IMG/VR virus record: IMGVR_UViG_3300042197_001183
Reading direction: 5' to 3' (one strand)
Length of the DNA stretch: 64,000 nucleotides
DNA from: an uncultured virus (IMG/VR IMGVR_UViG_3300042197_001183)
Lineage: Duplodnaviria; Heunggongvirae; Uroviricota; Caudoviricetes
Shown here: positions 21,786 to 63,110 of the stretch, one piece after another
How the letters are laid out: each line of letters begins with the position of its first letter
Position numbering within the stretch: the stretch's first letter is position 1
The notes under the pieces: model-generated
Seen by the model: only the letters and a program-made list of their open reading frames with translations
What the model was told of the DNA's origin: nothing
Databases searched by the model: none
Translations under genes and position numbers: made by a program

Positions 21786-24700
21786 ATGTCAAAAATAATT
21801 TCACAAGAGATAATCGAGAGCTTTTTAAATGGTTCAGATTCGGAACAATACATTGTTGGGGTGGAATACGACTATCAAACAAACAAAATTTTTAAAATAA
21901 TTCAAGACCCCGAAAGAGGTAAAATTATTAAATCAGATACCTTAATACCATTTTTATGGGTTGGTGATTTAAGTGAATGTAATTTTTATGGTGGAAATAA
22001 GTCTCTTCAGAAAAAGAAGATGGCTGAGTTTGGTATTGTAATTGAGAAACTACAAACACATGGGAACAACAGACTAGAAAATGGTCAATGTTATTTAGTA
22101 AAAAGTTTTAAAAATTACACATCTTTAGTTTCGTTTTTTAGATATGGGGGAGTTGACCCTTGGAACGAAAAATATAAACATTTATTCACCATATTGTCTC
22201 CGGTTGAACAATTTTTAGTTCAAAAGAAAAAAAGACTTTTTAAGGGTATTGATGATTATTCTGGTGTATATCGTTTTGTTTTTGACATTGAGACAACAGG
22301 TCTTGAACCTGAAAAAAATAGAATAATCCTTATTGGCGTTAAAGATAATCGTGGTTTTAAAAAAACCATATCGGCATTTGGGGATGATGGTGAAAAAAAA
22401 TGTATAGAAGAATTCTTTGAAATAATTAAAGAATTAAAACCCACTATAATAGGTGGTTACAATTCTGCGTCTTTTGATTTCCCTTTCATTTTAAAAAGAG
22501 CCGAAATTTTGGGTGTCGACATTAAAGAATGTACATCTATTTTCACTAATAATGGTATTAAACAAAAAGAAGGGATGCTAAAATTAGCAAACGAAGTGGA
22601 ACCATATACCCAACATATAATATGGGGTCATAATATTGTGGATATATCTCATTCAGTTAGAAGAGCACAGGCTATTAATTCGGAAATTAAGTCTTGGGGA
22701 TTGAAGTATATCACTCAATACTTAGAAAAAGAAAAACCAAATCGTGTTTATGTCGAAGGTTCTACCATTTCTAAGATATATTTAGAAAATGATAGTTATT
22801 ATGTTAATCCAAAAACAGGTAAATACAAAAAAATTGGTGAACCAGGTACGGAGAATTTGTTAGACAAATACCCCGGTAAATATGAAATATGGTCGGGTCA
22901 AAGAATAGTTGAACAATATCTTGACGATGACTTGTATGAAACAATGATTGTTGATGATTCGTTTTCACAATCAACATTTTTATTATCTAAATTGGTCCCA
23001 ACAACCTATGAAAGAATTGCAACTATGGGTACCGCCACTCTTTGGAAAATTATCATGTTGGCGTGGTCTTATGAGAATGAATTAGCAATTCCCGCTAAAG
23101 ATGAAAAAAGAGGGATTACTGGTGGTTTATCAAGATTGTTGAATGTTGGGTATTCAAAGAACATCGTAAAATTTGACTATGCTTCTCTTTACCCATCAAT
23201 TCAATTAGTTTATGATGTCTTTCCCGAATGTGATGTAATGGGTGTTCAAAAATCTATGTTAAAGTATTTTAGAAACATTCGTATCAAATACAAGAGGTTA
23301 GCTGGTGAACTGGCAAAAACAAATCCTGTTGAAGCGGAAATGTACGACCGAAAACAATTACCTATTAAGATTTTTATTAATGCGTATTTTGGTTCGTTAT
23401 CCGCACCCCAAGTATTTCCATGGGGTGATATGAATATGGGTGAAACAATTACCTGTACGGGTCGTCAATGTCTCCGTATGATGATTATGTTTTTTGAGAA
23501 AAAGGGATATAAACCACTCGTTATGGATAGTGTGGAATATGATACACCTATCTATCTTATGGATAAAATGGGTGATTTAGTTATTTTACCAATTTCAGAT
23601 ATCTTTGATGAAGAATCTGAATATAAAACTGACGATAATTTAAGAGATTTTTCAGAAAAAGAATATAAAGTTTTGACTAATCATGGTTGGCAACCAATTA
23701 ATTATGTTTATCGCCATGGAACAACAAAAACAATACATAAGTTAGTCACTAAGGATAGGTTAGTTAATTGTACATCTGACCATTCGGTATTCCAAAATGG
23801 TGTTCAAATAAAACCAACAAATTTGAAAAGAGGGGATAAAATAGATATCGTTGAAATACCTACAATGAATAATATTGACACTATGAGTTTGGATATGGCT
23901 AATTTAATTGGGTTTTTTATTGGTGATGGTTCAAGTACATATAGAGATAGGGGTCAAACATATAAAAATAAAAGAGGCGTTGTAAAAAGATATCGAAATA
24001 TGTCAGGTAATTTCACTTTAAATAACTCAAGGTTAGATATTTTAGAAAAATATCAAAAAGTATTAAAAAAAGAATTTGGGGTTGATTCTAAAATCAACGA
24101 TACACGTGAAAGTTCATCGGTCTATAAATTACAAACATCTAATGCGGAGATTTGTAAGTGGTTTTCAAAAAATTGTTATACAGGATATCGTCAAAAAATG
24201 GTTCCAAAAGAAATATTGAATAGTTCTAGTGAAATTATGAAATCATTTTTAGATGGATTTTACCTTGCTGATGGGTATGGTGATGATTTTAATAATCCCA
24301 TTGATATCGCTCAAAAATCAAAAGTTTGTGTTGCTGGTATTGTATTTTTATTAAAACAATTAGGTATTAGTTACAAAATTCAAATACGTAAAGATAAACC
24401 AAACATTCAAAGTATCATATTGGGCCACAAAAGAAATGATAAGTATTACAAAATTAACGACACCAAATCAAAAAGAAAAAGTGATGAGGTTTGGGGTAAT
24501 GTTGAATTAGAAAATAAAGAGAGGTATGTTTACGATATTTCGACCGCGGATGGGACTTTTGTTGGTGGGATTGGTGGAGTTCTTTTAAAGAATACCGATG
24601 GAGTAAATTTCTCAACACCAGAAGATATTGATTCTCACATTTATATTGGTAAAGGTTTAAATGAATTGGTAGAAAAGGGTAAAGAGTATATAGGCATTGA

Positions 24701-25748
24701 AGCGGACACCGCAGAATTCAATGATATCTTTATGAGAAATGAAATGGGACTTGACATTGATTACACCGCACCCGCTTGTATTAATGTATCAAGAAAAAAT
24801 TATATCATTAAACTCCTTAAAAAAGGAAAAGAAAAGATTAAACTAACAGGAAATACCATTAAATCCAAAAAACTTCAACAATACATTGTGGAATTTTTAG
24901 ATGAAGGTCTAAAACACTTATTGAATGGAGATGGGTTGTCGTTTATTGAATTATACTACAAATACGCTGAAAACATATATAATCAAAAAATACCACTATC
25001 AAAAATGGCGAATAAATCGAGAGTAAAACAATCGGTTGAAGACTATAAAAAACATATTAAAAAGACAACAAAATCAGGTTCTTTGATGTCTCGTCAAGCA
25101 CATATGGAGTTGGTTATTCAAAATAACTATCCTGCTGGTTTAGGTGAAACAATATACTATATTAATAATGGTAAAAAGAAATCCGATGGTGATGTCCAAA
25201 AGATAACAAAACCAACCAAAAAACAACAAGAAGAGTATTTTCAAAAACACGGGGAACAAATACCTATCGATTATTTGGAAATAAATTGTTATATGATTTC
25301 GGAAAAAGAAATGAGTAACAATCCTGAAATGACAGGCGATTATAATGTTGCAAGATATTTGAATAATTTTAATAAAAGAATAGAACCTTTATTGGTTGTC
25401 TTTAATCCTGAAATTCGTCACGATATTTTAATTGAAAATCCAGAAAAAAGACAATACTTTACTAAAACACAATGTCAATTGGTTAGTGGTTACCCATTAA
25501 AAGAAGATGGGCAAGATAAGTACGATGAGGTTATGACCTTATCAGATAGTGAAGTATTATTTTGGAATAGAGTTAATAGAGACCCATTTTTTATGTATGT
25601 GGAAGATAGTTTAGAACTTGTAAATCCACATTGGGTCGAATTAAATAGAAAAGTTGTGAAGTTAGAATCTGAAAGTATTAAGAATAATGAGGACGAATAT
25701 ATCGAAAATAACGGGAATGACTTTGCGTTCCACGCAGTAGAGACTTAA
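21786..25748 (+). CDS. polB: Family B DNA polymerase, intein-containing
   Basis: Exo motifs FDIETTG and GGYNSASFDFPF; pol motifs DYASLYPS, KIFINAYFG and VMD/TDG split by an intein. Confidence 0.95.
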   Translation: MSKIISQEIIESFLNGSDSEQYIVGVEYDYQTNKIFKIIQDPERGKIIKSDTLIPFLWVGDLSECNFYGGNKSLQKKKMAEFGIVIEKLQTHGNNRLENGQCYLVKSFKNYTSLVSFFRYGGVDPWNEKYKHLFTILSPVEQFLVQKKKRLFKGIDDYSGVYRFVFDIETTGLEPEKNRIILIGVKDNRGFKKTISAFGDDGEKKCIEEFFEIIKELKPTIIGGYNSASFDFPFILKRAEILGVDIKECTSIFTNNGIKQKEGMLKLANEVEPYTQHIIWGHNIVDISHSVRRAQAINSEIKSWGLKYITQYLEKEKPNRVYVEGSTISKIYLENDSYYVNPKTGKYKKIGEPGTENLLDKYPGKYEIWSGQRIVEQYLDDDLYETMIVDDSFSQSTFLLSKLVPTTYERIATMGTATLWKIIMLAWSYENELAIPAKDEKRGITGGLSRLLNVGYSKNIVKFDYASLYPSIQLVYDVFPECDVMGVQKSMLKYFRNIRIKYKRLAGELAKTNPVEAEMYDRKQLPIKIFINAYFGSLSAPQVFPWGDMNMGETITCTGRQCLRMMIMFFEKKGYKPLVMDSVEYDTPIYLMDKMGDLVILPISDIFDEESEYKTDDNLRDFSEKEYKVLTNHGWQPINYVYRHGTTKTIHKLVTKDRLVNCTSDHSVFQNGVQIKPTNLKRGDKIDIVEIPTMNNIDTMSLDMANLIGFFIGDGSSTYRDRGQTYKNKRGVVKRYRNMSGNFTLNNSRLDILEKYQKVLKKEFGVDSKINDTRESSSVYKLQTSNAEICKWFSKNCYTGYRQKMVPKEILNSSSEIMKSFLDGFYLADGYGDDFNNPIDIAQKSKVCVAGIVFLLKQLGISYKIQIRKDKPNIQSIILGHKRNDKYYKINDTKSKRKSDEVWGNVELENKERYVYDISTADGTFVGGIGGVLLKNTDGVNFSTPEDIDSHIYIGKGLNELVEKGKEYIGIEADTAEFNDIFMRNEMGLDIDYTAPACINVSRKNYIIKLLKKGKEKIKLTGNTIKSKKLQQYIVEFLDEGLKHLLNGDGLSFIELYYKYAENIYNQKIPLSKMANKSRVKQSVEDYKKHIKKTTKSGSLMSRQAHMELVIQNNYPAGLGETIYYINNGKKKSDGDVQKITKPTKKQQEEYFQKHGEQIPIDYLEINCYMISEKEMSNNPEMTGDYNVARYLNNFNKRIEPLLVVFNPEIRHDILIENPEKRQYFTKTQCQLVSGYPLKEDGQDKYDEVMTLSDSEVLFWNRVNRDPFFMYVEDSLELVNPHWVELNRKVVKLESESIKNNEDEYIENNGNDFAFHAVET
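23529..24593 (+). mobile_element. Intein (355 aa) with LAGLIDADG endonuclease in polB motif C
   Basis: VMD|SVEYDTPI...CTSDHS...LIGFFIGDG...FLDGFYLADG...VYDIST..GGVLLKN|TDG; removal restores MDTDG. Confidence 0.92.
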
Positions 25749-51702: not shown

Positions 51703-51776
51703 GGTTCGTTAGTAGAGTTGGTTACAATATCGCACTGTCACTGCGAAGGTCGTGGGTTCGATTCCCACACGAACCG
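51703..51776 (+). tRNA. tRNA-Asp (GTC)
   Basis: Acceptor GGTTCGT/ACGAACC, anticodon arm TCGCA-CTGTCAC-TGCGA, T arm GTGGG-TTCGATT-CCCAC, discriminator G; CCA not encoded. Confidence 0.93.
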
Positions 51777-51825
51777 CTTTTGGGGGATATAACTACTCAC
51801 CCCAAATCTCAGGGCGGGGACATAT

Positions 51826-51899
51826 AGGGGAATATATCAATTGGTTAGATTACGTGCTTTGGGAGCACGAGGTTGTGGGTTCGAGTCCCGCTTCCCCTA
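51826..51899 (+). tRNA. tRNA-Pro (TGG)
   Basis: Acceptor AGGGGAA/TTCCCCT, anticodon arm CGTGC-TTTGGGA-GCACG, T arm GTGGG-TTCGAGT-CCCGC, discriminator A; CCA not encoded. Confidence 0.92.
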
Positions 51900-56849: not shown

Positions 56850-57827
56850 ATGAAAGAAAAGATTTTACAAGAAAATCCGGGACGCTTTGTCCTTTTCCCA
56901 ATCGAATATCACGATATATGGAAACTCTATAAACAACAACAAGCTTGTTTTTGGACCGCAGAAGAAATCGATTTAAAAGACGATATATATGATTGGGAAA
57001 ATAAATTAAATGAAGATGAACAACATTTCGTAAAACACGTATTGGCGTTTTTCGCGGCATCAGATGGGATAGTAAATGAAAATTTGGCTATGAATTTTGT
57101 TAACGAGGTTCAATATACTGAAGCCAAAATGTTTTATGGGTTTCAAATTATGATGGAAAATATTCATAGTGAGACTTACTCGTTGTTGATTGATACTTAC
57201 ATTAAAGATAAACAAGAACAGAATAAATTATTCAACGCAATTGAAACAATTCCCGCGATTAAAAAGAAAGCGGAGTGGGCCATAAAATGGATTAATTCTA
57301 ATTCATTTGTTGAAAGGTTAATTGCATTTGCGGCTGTCGAGGGGATTTTCTTTTCTGGTTCGTTTTGTTCCATATTTTGGTTAAAAAAGAGAGGTTTAAT
57401 GCCGGGTCTAACATTCTCAAACGAATTAATTTCAAGAGATGAAGGAATGCATTGTGATTTTGCTTGTCACCTATATAATCAACATATCCAAAACAAATTA
57501 TCTGAAAAGAAAATAAGGGAAATTATTTGCGGGGCATTAGAAGTTGAAAAGGAATTTATTCTTGAGGCATTACCTGTTAGATTAATCGGTATGAATTCTG
57601 ACCTAATGTCTCAGTATTTGGAATTTGTAACGGACAGATTATTAGTTTCGTTAAATTGTTCTAAAGTATATAATGTTGAAAACCCATTTGATTTTATGCA
57701 AAATATTGCTCTTCAAGGTAAAACTAACTTCTTTGAAAAAAGAGTTGCTGAATATCAAAAAGCGGGAGTTAACAATAGTAGTTCTATTGAAGAAATGAAT
57801 GGTTCATTTGATGATATTGATTTTTAA
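56850..57827 (+). CDS. nrdB: Ribonucleotide reductase class Ia beta subunit
   Basis: [31 protein letters not shown] (radical Tyr), [17 protein letters not shown]. Confidence 0.97.
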
Positions 57828-57840
57828 AATTTAAAAAAAT

Positions 57841-60800
57841 ATGAAAGTTAAAAAGAGAGATGGGTCATTAGAAGAAATGAGATATGACAAAATCACAAGA
57901 AGAATTCAAAATTTTTGTGACGATTTAAATCTTGAATATATTGACCCCACATGGATAACACTTAAAGTAACGCAAGGTATATACGATGGTATATCAACAA
58001 CGGAATTAGATGTATTAGCAGCGGAGACCGCTGCCTCTCTTGTTACTTCTCATTCAGACTATGCAAAATTAGCTGGTAGATTGGCAGTATCTAATTTACA
58101 CAAAACAACACCAAAGAAATTCTCTCAATCAATAAAAGAATTACATTCTTTTGTTGAACCAAAAACAAACAAAGAATCTTCGTTAATATCTAACGAAACA
58201 TATTCATTTGTTCAACAATATAAAGATGTTTTAGATGGTGCCATTGTTCAAGAAAGAGATTTTGATTTTGATTATTTTGGTTTTAAGACATTAGAACGTT
58301 CATATCTATTGAAGATTGGTAATCGTATTGTTGAAAGACCGCAATACATGTATATGAGAGTTGCTGTTGGTATTTGTAATAACGACATTGAAAACGCTTT
58401 AAGGATTTATGATGATTTATCTCAACATTTTTATACCCACGCAACTCCAACATTATTTAATGCGGGAACACATAGACCACAAATGTCATCCTGTTTTTTG
58501 ATTGGTAATAAAGGTGATGATATTGATGGTTTATTTGACACAATAAAAGATGTTGCAAAAATATCTAAATGGGCGGGTGGTATTGGTTTACATGTTCACG
58601 ATGTAAGAGGTAAGGGTGCGTATATTAAAGGGACGGGTGGTGAGTCAGATGGTTTATTACCGATGATGAAAACATACAACGAAGTTGCTCGCTGGATTAA
58701 TCAATGTTTTACACCTGACACTTTATTATACACCAGTGAAGGTGTAAAAAGAATGGACGAATTACGAAATGGTGATTTAGTATTAACTAAAGAAAGAAAA
58801 TATTCCGAAGTAGGTGAGGTTTTAGTTTATCACCAAAATGGTGGAATGATTGAGATTGAAACCAAATCAACCTTAAAACCACTAAGGTTAACAGATTCAC
58901 ATCCGTTGTTTGGGTTTAAGAATACATATAGTAGAATATCTAGAGAAAATAGTGAATTTCTTAATCAATTAGAAAAGGGTATTGTGACCCCTGATTGGAT
59001 TGATAGTGGTGAATATAAAGTTGGTGATTTTATCGGTAAACCAATCCCAAAAGAAATTATTGATGTTGAAGATTTCACAGAAGACGACGCGTTTATTTAT
59101 GGGTTATTATTGGGTGATGGTCACATTAGTAGAAAGGAAGTGGGTATATCATTTAATAAAATAACTAACGAAAACGAAGTTAATTTTGTTAAAGACTATT
59201 TAACTAAAAAAGGTATAAATTTTTGGGAACACAGTTCAGATGAAAGACCATATTTAAATGTGAGATTTTCATTATCTAAATTATCGTGGTTATCATATGA
59301 GTTACTTTATAATGATAAAAAAGAGAAAAGGATTCATTTAAAATATTCACATTTACCTTTAAATAAATCAATTAGAATTATTTTAGGGTTAATTAAATCG
59401 GACGGAGGTGTTTATAGAAAAAATGAAATACATTTCTATAACACTAGTGAACTATTAATTGAAGGTATGTCATATCAAATACTTAGATTTGGCGTTCCAA
59501 CATATGGGGAATGGAGGGTTAGAGAGAATAATAGTGTTTATTTAAAAGAAAATGGTTGTAATAAAGAAAATACCTTATCGTGTGATTTAAGAATACCATC
59601 ATTCAAAGAATTATCTGATTTGTTGAATATTGAACAAGTGACTAAGAAAAATTGGATAATATGGGATAATATTCTTTATACTAGAATCACAAGTATAAAA
59701 ATGTTAGATGATTATGATGGAAAAGTCTACGATTTAAAAATTAAAGAAAATAGCGATGACCCATCATATACTCTGACCAGTTGTTTAGTTCACAATGGGG
59801 GAAAAAGACGCGGTTCATTTGCTGTTTATCTCGAACCATGGCACTCAGATGTATTTGAGTTTATTGAATTAAGAAAAAACCATGGAAAAGAAGAATTAAG
59901 AGCCAGAGATTTATTTTTAGCGATGTGGGTTCCTGATTTATTTATGAAAAGAGTGGAACAAGATTTAGATTGGTCATTATTTTCACCAGATGAAGCACAT
60001 GGATTATCCGACGTGTACGATGACCCGTATTTGTTTACTCAAGAATTTACTGAACTTTATGAAAGATATGAGAAGGAAGGTAGAGCAAGAAAAGTCGTAA
60101 AGGCTAGAAAATTAATGGATGCCATTTTGACCGCACAAATTGAAACGGGGGTACCTTATATGTTGTATAAAGATGCTGCTAATTACAAGTCAAACCAAAA
60201 GAACTTAGGTACAATTAAATCATCTAACTTGTGTATAACAGGTGACCAAAGAGTGGTGACAACAAAGGGTTACTTAACAGCTAAAGAATTGTGTGAAATG
60301 GATGTGGAATTAGAACTTTTTAATGGTTCTGAAATTGTCAAATCATCCAAAATGATTAAACGAGGTGAAAATGAAGATGTTTATAAAATAACATTAGAAA
60401 ATGGTATGGAACATAAAGTAACACCATATCATGGAATACCTGTAATTGACTCAAGAAATAATATAACACGTATTGAATGTAAGGATTTAAAAATAGGTGA
60501 TAAAATACCAATACAAATTAATAAAGGATTGTTTGGTTCAAAAGAAATGGTAGATGAGTCCTTTTTATTGGGTTTATATCAATCAGATGGTACGCAAAAC
60601 AAATCATCAATTTTATTTGATTTATGGGAAAATGATTTTGATTTAGTTGAAGAGATTGAAAACAAAATTCAAAAATTATATTCAAAATACGAGTATAAAC
60701 CTAGATATTCAACTAAAGGTGGTAAATTTATAGATTGTGTTGTTTCATTTTCTAAAGTAAAGAAAAAAAGATTATCTAGTGAATTTTTTAAAAAAGAATT

Positions 60801-62442
60801 ACTCTTTGAAAAGGGATATGTACCCGAATGGATTTGGTCTTCAAATGAAGAAACGCAATGGTCTTATTTGCGGGGTTTATTATTTGCTGATGGAACAGCT
60901 AATAAAAATAAATCAAAAGGAGAACCAATACAAATAAGTTATGCCGACATAAATATTGATTTTTTAAAAGAACTTCAATTAATTTTTCAAAATTTAGGTC
61001 TTCAAACATCTATTAGATTGTTAAGAAATGGAGGTCAACGGTCATTACCAAATGGTAAAGGTGGATATTCACTATACAAAACAAAAGATTGTTATAGATT
61101 AATTGTTGGTAATAAAAATGACTCACAAAAAATAAATGAAAAAATAGGGTTTCTTGATAGAAAAAACATAATCATTGACAATCGTGAATTTCGGGATAAT
61201 ACGAAAAAGGGATATAAAGTAAAATCCATAGAATATGTGGGTAAAGAAGATGTTTATTGTCCAACAATTTATAATGATGAACATATTTTTATTTCACAAG
61301 GATTAAAAACATTTAATTGCACTGAAATTCTAGAATTTTCTTCTTCAGAAGAACAAGCGGTTTGTAATTTAGCATCTATTGCTTTACCAAAATACATTGT
61401 TAATAAAGATTTTAGTCACGAGTTACTTTATGAATATGTATATCAAGTAGTAAAAAATTTGAACAATGTTATTGATTTGAATTTTTACCCAACAGACGAA
61501 ACGAAACTTTCGAATATGAGACACAGACCAGTTGGTTTAGGTGTTCAAGGATTGGCCGATGTTTTTTGTATATTGAAAATACCATTTGAAAGTGAAGAAG
61601 CGAATAAATTACAGGTTGAAATATTTGAAACAATGTATTTTGCAGCATTATCATCGTCAAAAGATTTATCAAAAGAAAATGGACCATATTCATCTTATGA
61701 AGGTTCGCCAATTTCTAAAGGTAAATTTCAATATGAACTTTGGGGTAAAAAAGATGAAGACACTAGTGGTAGATGGGATTGGAAATTTTTAAGAAATGAG
61801 ATTTTAAACCATGGTGTAAGAAATTCTCTTTTAATTGCCCCAATGCCAACGGCATCTACCGCTCAAATTTTAGGTAATAACGAAGCCTTTGAACCTTTTA
61901 CCTCTAATCTCTATTCAAGAAGAACATTGGGTGGTGAATTTATTGTAATCAATAAACATTTGGTTAATGAATTATTAGAAAGAGGGTTATGGTCTGACGA
62001 TATAAAGAAAAAACTAATAATGGAAAATGGTTCAGTACAAAACATACCAGAAATTCCTGTTGATGTAAAAGAAATTTATAAAACTGTTTGGGAGATGTCA
62101 CAAAAAAGAATTTTAACAATGGCAGCTAACAGGTCAATTTATATTGACCAATCCCAGTCATTAAATTTATTTATCGATAATGCTAGTAAAACAAAAGTTA
62201 TGGCCGCTCATTTATATGGTTGGAAACTTGGATTAAAAACGGGTATGTACTATCTTAGAACTAAGGCAGCCGTTGACCCAATTAAGGGTTTGGGTATTGA
62301 TACTTCGTCTTCAAAACCAAATGTTGAAAATCATACAAACAATGTTAAAGAACAAAATTTAACAAGTAATTATGTTGAAGAAATGGTTTTATCGATTAAA
62401 CCAAATGATTCACCATTTGAATGTGAAGGTTGTGGTTCATAA
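57841..62442 (+). CDS. nrdA: Ribonucleotide reductase class Ia alpha subunit with ATP cone and two inteins
   Basis: VKKRDG ATP cone, ATPTLFNAG, SSCFL, SNL/CTEI, CNLAS, APMPTASTAQ, KTGMYY, C-terminal CEGCGS. Confidence 0.97.
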   Translation: MKVKKRDGSLEEMRYDKITRRIQNFCDDLNLEYIDPTWITLKVTQGIYDGISTTELDVLAAETAASLVTSHSDYAKLAGRLAVSNLHKTTPKKFSQSIKELHSFVEPKTNKESSLISNETYSFVQQYKDVLDGAIVQERDFDFDYFGFKTLERSYLLKIGNRIVERPQYMYMRVAVGICNNDIENALRIYDDLSQHFYTHATPTLFNAGTHRPQMSSCFLIGNKGDDIDGLFDTIKDVAKISKWAGGIGLHVHDVRGKGAYIKGTGGESDGLLPMMKTYNEVARWINQCFTPDTLLYTSEGVKRMDELRNGDLVLTKERKYSEVGEVLVYHQNGGMIEIETKSTLKPLRLTDSHPLFGFKNTYSRISRENSEFLNQLEKGIVTPDWIDSGEYKVGDFIGKPIPKEIIDVEDFTEDDAFIYGLLLGDGHISRKEVGISFNKITNENEVNFVKDYLTKKGINFWEHSSDERPYLNVRFSLSKLSWLSYELLYNDKKEKRIHLKYSHLPLNKSIRIILGLIKSDGGVYRKNEIHFYNTSELLIEGMSYQILRFGVPTYGEWRVRENNSVYLKENGCNKENTLSCDLRIPSFKELSDLLNIEQVTKKNWIIWDNILYTRITSIKMLDDYDGKVYDLKIKENSDDPSYTLTSCLVHNGGKRRGSFAVYLEPWHSDVFEFIELRKNHGKEELRARDLFLAMWVPDLFMKRVEQDLDWSLFSPDEAHGLSDVYDDPYLFTQEFTELYERYEKEGRARKVVKARKLMDAILTAQIETGVPYMLYKDAANYKSNQKNLGTIKSSNLCITGDQRVVTTKGYLTAKELCEMDVELELFNGSEIVKSSKMIKRGENEDVYKITLENGMEHKVTPYHGIPVIDSRNNITRIECKDLKIGDKIPIQINKGLFGSKEMVDESFLLGLYQSDGTQNKSSILFDLWENDFDLVEEIENKIQKLYSKYEYKPRYSTKGGKFIDCVVSFSKVKKKRLSSEFFKKELLFEKGYVPEWIWSSNEETQWSYLRGLLFADGTANKNKSKGEPIQISYADINIDFLKELQLIFQNLGLQTSIRLLRNGGQRSLPNGKGGYSLYKTKDCYRLIVGNKNDSQKINEKIGFLDRKNIIIDNREFRDNTKKGYKVKSIEYVGKEDVYCPTIYNDEHIFISQGLKTFNCTEILEFSSSEEQAVCNLASIALPKYIVNKDFSHELLYEYVYQVVKNLNNVIDLNFYPTDETKLSNMRHRPVGLGVQGLADVFCILKIPFESEEANKLQVEIFETMYFAALSSSKDLSKENGPYSSYEGSPISKGKFQYELWGKKDEDTSGRWDWKFLRNEILNHGVRNSLLIAPMPTASTAQILGNNEAFEPFTSNLYSRRTLGGEFIVINKHLVNELLERGLWSDDIKKKLIMENGSVQNIPEIPVDVKEIYKTVWEMSQKRILTMAANRSIYIDQSQSLNLFIDNASKTKVMAAHLYGWKLGLKTGMYYLRTKAAVDPIKGLGIDTSSSKPNVENHTNNVKEQNLTSNYVEEMVLSIKPNDSPFECEGCGS
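58705..59796 (+). mobile_element. Intein 1 in nrdA (364 aa, LAGLIDADG), +1 residue Gly
   Basis: WINQ|CFTPDT..LTDSHP..YGLLLGDG..LGLIKSDG..VYDL..LVHN|GGKRRG. Confidence 0.88.
60232..61317 (+). mobile_element. Intein 2 in nrdA (362 aa, LAGLIDADG) at the catalytic Cys
   Basis: SSNL|CITGDQ..VTPYH..LGLYQSDG..LRGLLFADG..VYCP..KTFN|CTEI. Confidence 0.92.
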
Positions 62443-62452
62443 GAACAATCGT

Positions 62453-62529
62453 GGGTGACCCCCTTAATAGTCAAGGATAACCTTGAGCACCTAATCGTTT
62501 AGTCATACAGGGGGTGAAAACTAAACGAT
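62453..62529 (+). ncRNA. Candidate pseudoknotted structured RNA, family unknown
   Basis: Four complementary pairs in 77 nt: GGTG/CACC, TCAAGG/CCTTGA, ATCGTTTAG/CTAAACGAT and loop-loop ACCCCCT/AGGGGGT. Confidence 0.55.
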
Positions 62530-62533
62530 ATAT

Positions 62534-62564
62534 AATCCCATCGAATTCTCGATGGGATTTTTTT
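62534..62564 (+). terminator. Rho-independent terminator after nrdA and the structured RNA
   Basis: AATCCCATCGA-ATTC-TCGATGGGATT followed by a U-tract. Confidence 0.85.
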
Positions 62565-62646
62565 ATATGTATAATACATGAAAAAATTTTTTGGTCTAAT
62601 GGTTATTTTGATTGTTTAATGTGAACTTAGATTTGGTCTTTCGCTA

Positions 62647-62653
62647 TATTTAT
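62647..62653 (+). promoter_or_regulatory. Putative late promoter (TATTTAT) of the baseplate wedge operon
   Basis: Motif 4 nt upstream of the gp25-like ATG. Confidence 0.5.
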
Positions 62654-62657
62654 AAAC

Positions 62658-63110
62658 ATGGCGGGAACATATGGTATAGATTTTCCATTTAGACAAAGTC
62701 TTAAAGGTGATTTCTTAATAATGACAGAGACACCTGAAAGAGAAATTCGTGCAAATTTAATACATCTTCTTTTAACGAGAAAGGGTACTAGATATTATTT
62801 ACCTGATTTTGGAACTAGATTGTTTGAATTTATTTTTGAACCAAACGATGCCATTACGTGGGGACAAATAGAAGATGAAATAAGAACATCAGTAAGACAA
62901 TTTATACCTAATTTAGAAATTAAATCTATAAGGGTAACCGCTGCGGACCAAGACGAGGAAGAACCAACTAGTCCCCAAGAAGACGAAGATTCTAGATTAT
63001 TTAGAGTTTCGGACTATTCAACTAAACCATACACCGCTAAGGTTAGGGTAGATTATGATATTAATAATGAACCATTTGTCTCTTCTGACTTTATAATTAT
63101 AAACATTTAA
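62658..63110 (+). CDS. Baseplate wedge protein, gp25-like
   Basis: GIDFPF, IRANLIHLLLTRKGTR..PDFGT.L..FIFEP, I..SV..FIP. Confidence 0.9.
   Translation: MAGTYGIDFPFRQSLKGDFLIMTETPEREIRANLIHLLLTRKGTRYYLPDFGTRLFEFIFEPNDAITWGQIEDEIRTSVRQFIPNLEIKSIRVTAADQDEEEPTSPQEDEDSRLFRVSDYSTKPYTAKVRVDYDINNEPFVSSDFIIINI

What the first reader, a model, noticed from the sequence alone, without database searches (positions are those of the whole stretch)
62453..62564. Compact pseudoknotted RNA between nrdA and its terminator
Seen: a GC-richer island in AT-rich DNA. P1 GGTG(62454-57)/CACC(62488-91) encloses hairpin TCAAGG-ATAA-CCTTGA and a 13-nt internal strand. A second hairpin ATCGTTTAG(62494-502)/CTAAACGAT(62521-29) has an 18-nt loop. 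ACCCCCT(62458-64) in the first domain is perfectly complementary to AGGGGGT(62509-15) in that loop. A separate terminator follows 4 nt later. I could not match hammerhead, twister, pistol or HDV cores. Inference: an undescribed ncRNA (ribozyme, nuclease-resistant 3' element, ligand sensor or protein sponge). Lying 3' of nrdA with no gene before the terminator, it does not look like a standard riboswitch.
Basis: partly seen in the sequence, partly recalled or inferred. Interest (0 to 1): 0.7.

Follow-up and report, generated by a model that had tools for sequence, protein, structure and literature searches.

The report
Widespread knotted phage RNA behind nrdA
The flagged stretch is a real, strongly conserved, pseudoknotted small RNA that belongs to a large family of phage RNAs found in no RNA catalogue, and it also turns up between tRNA genes and in or beside phage tmRNA genes, so it is a self-contained RNA of unknown job rather than a switch for nrdA.

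Summary
Two helices are slightly longer: P1 is 6 bp and hairpin 2 is 10 bp. The fold has strong comparative support. On 30 distinct homologues from nrdA–gp25 loci of related uncultured T4-like jumbo phages, 87.5% of cells pair, against 36–50% when partners are slid, and 17 of 31 pairs show compensatory changes. On 70 distinct sequences, P1, the capping hairpin and the pseudoknot pair at 94.9%, and the pseudoknot has three covarying pairs.

Rfam 15 has no match. The family reaches far beyond nrdA. 165 distinct members were parsed, in two architectures. They lie in tRNA arrays, just upstream of phage tmRNA, inside tmRNA where PK2 sits, and behind assorted genes. There was one copy per phage contig in 10 of 10. 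The family is rare in cellular genomes (5 confirmed).

Helix order resembles HDV-like ribozymes, but their active-site features are absent.

- **Best reading (0.35):** an autonomous, stable small RNA riding on other transcripts.
- **Rivals:** a new self-cleaving ribozyme, an exonuclease-proof cap, an antiterminator.

Function is untested.

The parts
57841..62442 (+). nrdA (class I ribonucleotide reductase large subunit, 1533 aa, carrying intein/LAGLIDADG insertions). The RNA element starts 6-10 nt after its TAA stop (62440-62442).
   Evidence: ORF list; translation; Pfam ATP-cone, Ribonuc_red_lgN/lgC, Intein_splicing, LAGLIDADG_3.
62448..62531 (+). The whole RNA element, as matched by the covariance model.
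   Evidence: R1 match of 89.5 bits, E 5e-18. It is the only match in the window; the next best is 17.2 bits (filters off).
62452..62457 (+). P1, 5' strand (TGGGTG).
   Evidence: Pairs with 62488-93. P1 cells pair at 100% on A2 and 97.9% on A3, with 3 covarying pairs. RNAalifold predicts it independently.
62458..62464 (+). Pseudoknot, 5' strand (ACCCCCT), directly contiguous with P1.
   Evidence: Pairs with 62509-15. 96.6% of cells pair on A3. Three pairs have changes on both sides, e.g. G-C in 50 against A-U in 14 sequences.
62465..62470 (+). Conserved joining strand TAATAG. In the family it reads TAATAG or TAATGG, or CAAAG-minihairpin-CTGTCG in a three-way-junction variant.
   Evidence: Alignments. 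The first six letters are TAATAG in 72 and TAATGG in 28 of 165 members.
62471..62486 (+). Capping hairpin P2 (TCAAGG-ATAA-CCTTGA).
   Evidence: 89.9% of cells pair and all 6 pairs covary on A3. It is lost in a degenerate subclade (L025, L035, L038, L040, L050).
62488..62493 (+). P1, 3' strand (CACCTA). The family consensus is CATC plus 1-2 covarying outer pairs.
   Evidence: The first outer pair is paired in 161 of 165, using five pair types.
62494..62503 (+). Closing helix P3, 5' strand (ATCGTTTAGT); 'type A' architecture.
   Evidence: Pairs with 62520-29. 9 of 11 pairs covary on A2. Predicted by RNAalifold.
62505..62509 (+). Conserved ATACA, leading into the pseudoknot's 3' strand.
   Evidence: Nearly invariant in the protein-anchored alignment. 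It reads ATAAA in the degenerate subclade.
62509..62515 (+). Pseudoknot, 3' strand (AGGGGGT), inside the P3 loop.
   Evidence: see the 5' strand.
62516..62519 (+). Conserved GAA(A), linking the pseudoknot to the closing helix.
   Evidence: Alignments. GAA is followed by A in 123 of 165.
62520..62529 (+). Closing helix P3, 3' strand (ACTAAACGAT).
62534..62565 (+). Intrinsic terminator (11-bp stem, 4-nt loop, T run), 4 nt after the element.
   Evidence: A terminator is present at this place in relatives both with and without the element.
62658..63110 (+). Downstream gene: gp25-like baseplate wedge protein. It marks the start of a structural-gene block.
   Evidence: Pfam GPW_gp25, 4.5e-15. The nrdA-to-gp25 order is conserved in the related loci.

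Best explanation
The stretch 62448-62531 is this phage's single copy of a widespread, uncatalogued phage RNA of about 75-95 nt with a compact double-pseudoknot fold.

The fold:
- P1.
- A pseudoknot strand that continues P1 without any linker.
- A capping hairpin.
- A closing helix whose loop supplies the other pseudoknot strand, flanked by the conserved AUACA and GAA(A).

It is a self-contained RNA module, not a cis-regulator of nrdA. Phages express it by letting it ride on whatever stable or abundant transcript is at hand:
- Between tRNAs, where RNase P and tRNA 3' processing would cut it out.
- As the leader of a phage tmRNA.
- Built into tmRNA where PK2 sits.
- As here, as the tail of the nrdB-nrdA message, ended by its own intrinsic terminator.

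The mechanism I commit to is this. The RNA acts through its near-invariant tertiary core as a free-standing (or transcript-borne) RNA that binds a universally conserved cellular partner. The translation or RNA-processing machinery is the best guess, given its constant company of tRNAs and tmRNA.

Shown: the fold, its conservation, the contexts, and one copy per genome. Inferred: its release and stability as a small RNA, that it acts by binding, and the identity of the partner.
For: **Fold.** Covariation supports all four helices.

**Self-contained.**
- The same core sits in unrelated contexts. In L199 it lies between two tRNAs.
- In 17 of 165 members a tRNA lies within 35 nt.
- tmRNA follows immediately downstream in L205 and L216 and in L314, L319 and L329.
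- It lies inside tmRNA in 8 of 167 members by ARAGORN. In L219 it aligns to the tmRNA model's PK2 region.
- Flanking proteins show no common family: 37 ORFs were scanned, 11 had any Pfam hit, and all were different apart from DUF6734, which flanked two loci.

**Gene-like copy number.** Exactly one match in 10 of 10 large phage contigs of 121-311 kb, and one in the window.

**A conserved partner.**
- The core sequence, including the paired GGUG/CAUC and most of the pseudoknot, is kept in members with GC from 0.27 to 0.65.
- Positions not fixed by my search patterns are also kept. CATC/CACC and GAA are present in 165 of 167.

**Precedent for riding on tRNA transcripts.** T4's tRNA cluster transcript is also the precursor of the species I and II RNAs (PMC2330249, passage seen).
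Against: - No expression or end-mapping data exist. The only runs found were contigs, and the one true RNA run does not cover the element.
- In the nrdA context there is no promoter or known processing site that would release it. It may never exist as a free RNA here.
- A subclade (L018-L025, L035, L038, L040, L050) keeps P1, a 5-bp pseudoknot and a covarying P3. It has lost the capping hairpin (L025, L035, L038, L040, L050), the TAAT strand and (in L018-L025, L035, L038) the C of ATACA. That fits a purely mechanical role better than specific binding.
- The element is dispensable: 53 of 80 nrdA-anchored relatives lack it.
- No partner is identified. The presence of tmRNA does not track an intact, degenerate or absent element.
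Confidence: 0.35

Rival explanations
1. It is a new class of self-cleaving ribozyme. The double-pseudoknot core positions a scissile phosphate in or beside one of the conserved joining strands, or at the 5' edge of P1 as in HDV-like ribozymes. Cleavage would trim neighbouring tRNAs or cut the nrdA message free of its terminator.
For: - Small size, conserved junction nucleotides, optional stems and two permuted architectures (69 type A, 81 type B, 15 ties of 165).
- Scattered contexts in phages, including flush positions behind tRNAs. In three type A cases P1 starts 2-3 nt after the tRNA end called by ARAGORN (L312, L213, L407). Theta ribozymes likewise cleave within a few nt of tRNA 3' ends (PMC10879173, section 7 read).
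- The helix order P1-P2-hairpin-P1'-(P4)-joiner with a conserved C-P2' equals the HDV-like order.
Against: - No match to any ribozyme family of Rfam 15, even at E<=10.
- The HDV-like active-site elements are absent: no 3-bp P3 with L3, no P1.1, no G-U at the base of P1.
- In type B an outer helix pairs the sequence 5' of P1 with the 3' end, which is awkward for cleavage at the P1 edge.
- Copies built into tmRNA would cut the tmRNA in two.
- The helix sequences themselves are nearly invariant, unlike those of known small ribozymes.
Confidence: 0.2
2. It is a mechanical barrier: a knotted fold that stalls exoribonucleases and so caps and protects an RNA end. Here it would act as a second lock behind the terminator for the nrdB-nrdA message. 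Elsewhere it would cap the end left by RNase P, or protect tmRNA.
For: - The threaded double-pseudoknot topology with A-rich crossing strands.
- A position just behind stop codons in many members (window; L173, L196, L188, L212).
- It replaces a structural pseudoknot of tmRNA.
- The degenerate subclade keeps only the pseudoknot skeleton, with covariation in P3.
- Earlier notes of this scan proposed such gene-end knots for other families. These are a lead only.
Against: - One copy per 120-310-kb genome in 10 of 10 contigs. A general stabiliser would be expected at many gene ends.
- Positions in the middle of tRNA arrays, and at the very start of a tmRNA transcript with no upstream message to protect.
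- A terminator hairpin already protects this 3' end.
- A core sequence this strictly kept is more than a barrier seems to need.
Confidence: 0.2
3. It is a cis-acting processive antiterminator (put-like). The nascent RNA binds the RNA polymerase that made it and carries it through the terminator 4 nt downstream into the baseplate genes, and through hairpin-rich tRNA or tmRNA regions elsewhere.
For: - It is always upstream of a terminator in the nrdA lineage.
- It is context-independent, and its target would be universally conserved, which fits the invariant core.
- An earlier scan note suggested this for another phage pseudoknot family (lead only).
- Knowledge of HK022 put RNAs is recalled, not taken from a call.
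Against: - Relatives without the element keep the same terminator and a conserved promoter-like stretch before gp25. Read-through is therefore not needed to express gp25.
- Many copies sit mid-array or inside tmRNA rather than at the head of a transcription unit.
- It has no resemblance to the two-hairpin put fold.
Confidence: 0.07
4. It is a riboswitch or ligand sensor that controls the adjacent terminator.
For: An aptamer-like, highly conserved pseudoknot lies directly upstream of an intrinsic terminator.
Against: - There is no regulated ORF before the terminator.
- I found no conserved alternative pairing between the element and the terminator arms when terminators differ (sequences).
- Most family members have no terminator at all: a T5 run lies within 25 nt downstream in 10 of 165.
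- They sit beside tRNAs or tmRNA, with no common neighbouring gene family.
Confidence: 0.03

Closest known systems
HDV-like self-cleaving ribozymes, including the phage 'theta' ribozymes (PMC10879173)
   Same: - The same order of strands: P1, then the second helix's 5' strand, a hairpin, P1's 3' strand, an optional hairpin, a short joiner with a conserved C, and the second helix's 3' strand. That is a nested double pseudoknot.
- Found in phages, often within a few nucleotides of tRNA genes.
- Similar in size.
   Different: - No 3-bp P3 with an L3 loop, and no P1.1.
- P1 is 5-6 bp with an internal rather than a basal G-U.
- The helix sequences are nearly invariant.
- An extra closing helix exists in two arrangements.
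- No Rfam HDV model matches.
- Catalysis is untested.
Species I and II stable RNAs of the phage T4 tRNA gene cluster
   Same: Small non-tRNA RNAs made from the same precursor transcript as phage tRNAs (PMC2330249 passage). That their function is unknown is recalled, not taken from a call. The present family also sits at tRNA-like spacing inside arrays. The window phage is T4-like.
   Different: No sequence or structure comparison was made here; this is a likeness of context only. In the window itself the element is not in the tRNA region (tRNAs at 51703-51899) but lies behind nrdA.
Pseudoknot PK2 of tmRNA
   Same: In 8 of 167 members the element lies inside a tmRNA gene. In L219 it aligns to the PK2 segment of the Rfam tmRNA model, just after the tag reading frame.
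   Different: It is a four- to five-helix module rather than a simple H-type pseudoknot. It occurs mostly outside tmRNA, as here.
Orphan structured RNAs of phages in Rfam (for example manA, wcaG, GOLLD, ROOL)
   Same: Conserved, pseudoknot-containing RNAs of uncultured phages, often near tRNA genes, with unknown function (family properties recalled).
   Different: None of these models matches the element at the gathering score or at E<=10. This RNA is much smaller than GOLLD or ROOL.

Membership tests
Any Rfam 15 family | Covariance-model match at the family's gathering score | tested here: not met
   The window gave only 2 tRNAs. In 62350-62700 at E<=10 there were 10 weak matches; the best was 21 bits against a cut-off of 90, driven mostly by the terminator. 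20 loci with family members gave only 46 tRNA and 3 tmRNA matches. A type B member gave 0 matches at E<=10.
HDV-like / theta ribozyme | Nested double-pseudoknot strand order P1-P2-P3-P1'-P4-P2' | tested here: met
   The strand order is read from the alignments. P1 and the pseudoknot cross and both covary.
HDV-like / theta ribozyme | A 3-bp P3 with an L3 loop that forms P1.1 with the two nucleotides after P1's 3' strand | tested here: not met
   The corresponding hairpin is 6 bp with a tetraloop of variable sequence, and a conserved 6-nt joiner precedes it. P1's 3' strand runs directly into the next helix. The definition of the feature is recalled and taken in part from PMC10879173, section 7.
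HDV-like / theta ribozyme | Catalytic cytosine at the first position of J4/2 | tested here: inconclusive
   A conserved C lies in ATACA, one nucleotide before the pseudoknot's 3' strand. In the protein-anchored set it is replaced by A in 8 of 30 sequences of a subclade. Its role is untested.
HDV-like / theta ribozyme | Self-cleavage at the 5' edge of P1 | not testable with these tools
   Needs in-vitro transcription. The public runs found were contigs only.
Transcription-terminating riboswitch | An aptamer in the 5' leader of a regulated gene, with an alternative pairing to the terminator and a recurrent gene association | tested here: not met
   It lies 3' of nrdA. I saw no conserved aptamer-terminator complementarity across variants. 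The neighbours are diverse. Most members lack a terminator.
Twister, pistol, hatchet, hammerhead ribozymes | Match to the family model | tested here: not met
   No such family appears among the matches at E<=10. Permuted forms that the models cannot see are not excluded.
tmRNA pseudoknot (PK2) | Lies within a tmRNA gene between the tag reading frame and PK3 | tested here: not met
   This is true of 8 of 167 family members but not of the window copy. The window has no tmRNA.

The most novel reading that the evidence does not exclude
The family is a new catalytic or decoy RNA class of phages. One possibility is a previously unseen self-cleaving ribozyme that reaches an HDV-like double-pseudoknot topology with a different active site. 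The other is a free-standing RNA 'sponge' whose invariant core captures a universally conserved host component (ribosome, RNA polymerase, RNase P or a signalling nucleotide). In either case phages would deploy it once per genome by splicing it into tRNA arrays, tmRNA or message tails.
Probability: 0.3. Interest if true: 0.9.

Novelty: categorically new. Interest (0 to 1): 0.8.

Why it matters
Small RNA folds that keep some 35 positions almost fixed across phages with 27% to 65% GC are rare. In the past such folds have turned out to be ribozymes, riboswitch aptamers or parts of core machinery.

- **Abundance.** It is almost confined to phages and is absent from Rfam 15.
- **Modularity.** It appears as an interchangeable module in tRNA arrays, in and next to phage tmRNA, and in message tails.
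- **Open questions it bears on.** Defining what it does would add a new RNA class. It could also explain why large phages carry non-tRNA RNAs in their tRNA clusters, an open question since the T4 species I and II RNAs.
- **Testability.** The two natural architectures and the degenerate subclade provide ready-made mutants for bench tests.

Tried and rejected
- **Named phages.** blastn of the element, and of two type B members, against 50,697 phage records found no homologue. The only exception was one 75-nt match in an unannotated 636-kb uncultured phage.
- **Own genome.** None is held for this window.
- **RNA evidence.**
  - The one run search gave six runs with small shares, all kept as contigs.
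  - Laying four of them showed DNA-like cover by relatives.
  - The only true RNA run did not cover the element.
  - Nothing can therefore be said about expression, ends or cleavage.
- **First pseudoknot count on A3.** One search used wrong columns and is void. One search replaces it.
- **Does an intact core track possession of tmRNA?** The first five contigs suggested so. Twenty more refuted it. tmRNA is present with degenerate elements (records of L018 and L048) and with no element (records of L120 and L150), and most contigs are fragments.
- **Recoding signal.** The spacing from the nrdA stop to P1 varies from about 1 to 10 nt among relatives, and many copies follow no ORF. I rejected this.
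- **Shared neighbouring protein.** There is none. DUF6734 flanked two loci (L190, L195), and two loci have homing-endonuclease ORFs downstream (GIY-YIG, HNH). I take this as background for such phages.
- **Mimicry of a tRNA-Ala/tmRNA acceptor stem by the pseudoknot.**
  - I considered this because of the G/C run with one G-U.
  - I dropped it because that pair varies (U-G in 50, U-A in 11, C-G in 3, G-U in 3, A-U in 1 of 68).
  - It is C-G in the window itself.
- **Literature.**
  - Four core strings gave only two unrelated human-genetics papers.
  - Word searches for phage tRNA-array motifs, new ribozyme classes and bacterial exonuclease-resistant RNAs found nothing describing this RNA.
  - Supplements were not opened.
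- **L157.** Its intergenic region looked like a distant variant by eye, but it does not match the model.

Full report
**Setting**

The window is AT-rich (about 30% GC). It encodes a T4-like myovirus gene set:
- Gp23 capsid, gp32, tail sheath and baseplate proteins.
- A family B DNA polymerase with an intein.
- nrdB (56850-57827).
- nrdA (57841-62442, 1533 aa, with intein/LAGLIDADG insertions).

Related contigs reach 290-310 kb. No whole genome is held for the window. The finding lies between the nrdA stop (62440-42) and an intrinsic terminator (62534-59 plus a T run). After the terminator comes a gp25-like baseplate gene (62658-63110).

**Observation**

- P1 can be extended to 6 bp (62452-57 / 62488-93).
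- The second hairpin can be extended to 10 bp (62494-503 / 62520-29).
- The 7-nt complementarity ACCCCCT/AGGGGGT is unique in the window, with 0.01 expected by chance.
- The stretch folds better than all 200 shuffles (z = -3.99). The opposite strand does so too, so energy alone does not pick the strand.
- The single-sequence minimum-energy fold prefers a nested alternative. The case for the pseudoknot therefore rests on comparison.

**Homologues at the same locus**

- Protein-anchored searches of IMG/VR with the gp25-like protein and with the nrdA C-terminus each kept 80 loci.
- The nrdA-to-gp25 gene order is widely conserved.
- There are 64 distinct intergenic sequences, and 30 distinct versions of the element.
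- In the nrdA-anchored set, which is unbiased with respect to the RNA, the covariance model finds the element in 27 of 80 loci (E<=2.2e-10) and not in 53.
- It is present in close relatives and in some distant ones (nrdA identity 71-75%).
- It is absent from others that keep only the terminator and a conserved AT-rich stretch before gp25.
- The element is therefore an accessory, dispensable insert.

**Covariation**

On the 30 protein-anchored sequences (alignment A2):
- 87.5% of cells pair, against 35.6-49.5% when partners are slid.
- 17 of 31 pairs show changes on both sides.
- None of 500 shuffles reaches the observed score.

RNAalifold, which was not given my structure, predicts P1 and P3.

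On a model-based alignment of 70 distinct sequences (A3), P1, the capping hairpin and the pseudoknot behave as follows:
- 94.9% of cells pair, against 30-61% when slid.
- 12 of 19 pairs are compensatory.
- The pseudoknot pairs at 96.6%, with three pairs changed on both sides (G-C in 50 and A-U in 14 at its first pair).

Two caveats on this evidence:
- The model did not contain the pseudoknot, so those columns were not fitted to it.
- Part of A3 was retrieved with a pattern that fixes GGTG, CCCT and ATACAGGG. Invariance at those letters in those rows is by construction. The three covarying pseudoknot pairs lie outside the fixed letters.

The conserved G-U pairs would be A-C on the other strand, which identifies the plus strand as the RNA.

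**The family is much wider**

51 of the 80 fetched loci match the model. They include members with up to 0.65 GC.
- A stricter pattern in metagenomes also stopped at its limit, with 120 stretches.
- In 185,579 species genomes the pattern hit 9 places, of which 5 match the model. All 5 are MAG contigs: Patescibacteria group (two), Beckwithbacteria, Peribacteria and Planctomycetota. Three of the five have tRNA or tmRNA genes nearby.
- Named phage records hold no homologue, except one match in an unannotated 636-kb uncultured phage.
- Rfam 15 has no family for it in any of these contexts.

**Architecture**

167 distinct members were collected, and 165 could be parsed. The shared core, 5' to 3', is:
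1. 1-2 covarying pairs.
2. GGUG.
3. A 7-nt pseudoknot strand (mostly GCUCCCU).
4. UAAUAG or UAAUGG, or a three-way-junction variant that reads CAAAG-minihairpin-CUGUCG.
5. A 6-bp hairpin.
6. R.
7. CAUC, then 1-2 covarying pairs.
8. A variable segment.
9. AUACA.
10. The pseudoknot's 3' strand.
11. GAA(A).
12. The 3' strand of a closing helix.

The closing strand pairs in one of two ways:
- **Type A** (69 members, including the window): with the segment just after P1.
- **Type B** (81 members): with the sequence 5' of P1. A small extra hairpin usually sits after P1.
- The remaining 15 are ties.

The closing helix is at least 7 bp in 74.5% of members, against 27.6% when the 3' flanks are swapped. 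The strand order equals that of HDV-like ribozymes. The elements that define their active site are missing (see the membership table).

**Contexts**

- **tRNA arrays.**
  - In L199 the element fills the gap between tRNA-Phe (ARAGORN 1422-1495) and tRNA-Arg (starting 1576).
  - In L199 the core starts 5 nt after the first tRNA and ends 10 nt before the second.
  - Across the family, 17 of 165 members have a tRNA within 35 nt.
  - The spacers run about 2-8 nt in the tightest cases.
- **Upstream of tmRNA.** A subgroup of 38 of 165 shares an AAAUCAC/GUGAUU outer helix. tmRNA follows within about 20-30 nt in L205 and L216 and in L314, L319 and L329 (3 of 20 sampled, with flanks cut short). 4 of the same 20 have tRNAs instead.
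- **Inside tmRNA.** Eight of 167 members lie inside a tmRNA gene. In L219 the Rfam alignment places the element right after the tag frame, on the model's PK2 segment.
- **Other neighbours.** Flanking ORFs share no family, apart from DUF6734 beside two loci.
- **Copy number.** Each of 10 large phage contigs holds exactly one copy, as does the window.

**What this means**

A riboswitch or any nrdA-specific regulator is excluded by the contexts. The remaining readings are:

1. **A self-contained RNA gene that rides on other transcripts.** I prefer this one for four reasons:
   - There is one copy per genome.
   - The spacing inside arrays is tRNA-like.
   - It is used as a leader of tmRNA and as a part of tmRNA.
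   - Even the helix sequences stay nearly invariant across very different hosts, which suggests a conserved partner.

   The T4 precedent of species I and II RNAs, made from the tRNA precursor, fits this (PMC2330249).
2. **A new self-cleaving ribozyme.** This is favoured by the permuted architectures, the HDV-like topology and the flush positions behind tRNAs, as for theta ribozymes (PMC10879173).
3. **An exonuclease-proof cap.** This is favoured by the threaded fold and by a subclade that keeps only the pseudoknot skeleton. The single copy per genome argues against it.
4. **A put-like antiterminator.** This is the least supported.

None of these can be settled without bench work. The only public runs found gave contigs that say nothing about RNA ends.

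**Novelty**

No Rfam family, no named phage record and no paper found by my searches describes this RNA. I did not open supplements, and subscription journals are not in the library. Earlier notes of this scan describe other uncatalogued phage pseudoknot families in similar niches. A sequence look-up with the window copy found none of them. A look-up with the L216 copy found only a note on a tmRNA locus that did not mention the element.

Noticed in passing
window 57841-62442 and 21786-25748: nrdA is 1533 aa because of intein-type insertions with LAGLIDADG endonuclease domains. The family B DNA polymerase also carries an intein/LAGLIDADG insert.
   Followed up: partly
window 62566-62657, against L001 2586-3000: Close relatives (L001, L003-L012) have about 320 more bases between the terminator and gp25, opening with an ATG-led small ORF. 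The window keeps only a 13-codon remnant (ATGAAAAAATTTTTTGG...TAA), so a small gene has been deleted here.
   Followed up: partly
window 62600-62657 and the same place in L001-L160: The roughly 45 nt before the gp25 start (…ATTTATTAGTATTT…TTATATTTAT…ATG) are conserved even in distant relatives that lack the RNA element. This may be a late promoter or a translation signal.
   Followed up: no
window 62446-62451 and 62492-62497: The hexamer AATCGT occurs on both sides of the P1 domain. The 3' strand ACGAT (62525-29) can therefore pair with either copy, giving a 5-bp 'type B-like' outer helix (used by the minimum-energy fold) or the 10-bp type A helix. In L001 both copies and the partner carry the matching change (AATTGT / ACAAT).
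   Followed up: partly
L013-L017 (and L081, L082, L093-L095), intergenic region: A sub-lineage with 92% nrdA identity has lost the element. It retains ...ATCGTTTTACA... before the terminator, which looks like a remnant of the closing helix and loop.
   Followed up: no
L219 1283-1750 (also L308, L323, L343, L355, L371, L387, L274): These are phage tmRNA genes in which this RNA module takes the place of pseudoknot PK2. ARAGORN reads an odd tag (APVPLMGL*) for L219.
   Followed up: partly
window 51703-51776 and 51826-51899: Two tRNA genes lie 10 kb upstream of the element. They are the only Rfam matches in the window.
   Followed up: no
L182 2002-2484; L190 603-1274: Free-standing homing-endonuclease-like ORFs (HNH; SegE-type GIY-YIG) lie a few hundred bases downstream of two family members.
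   Followed up: no
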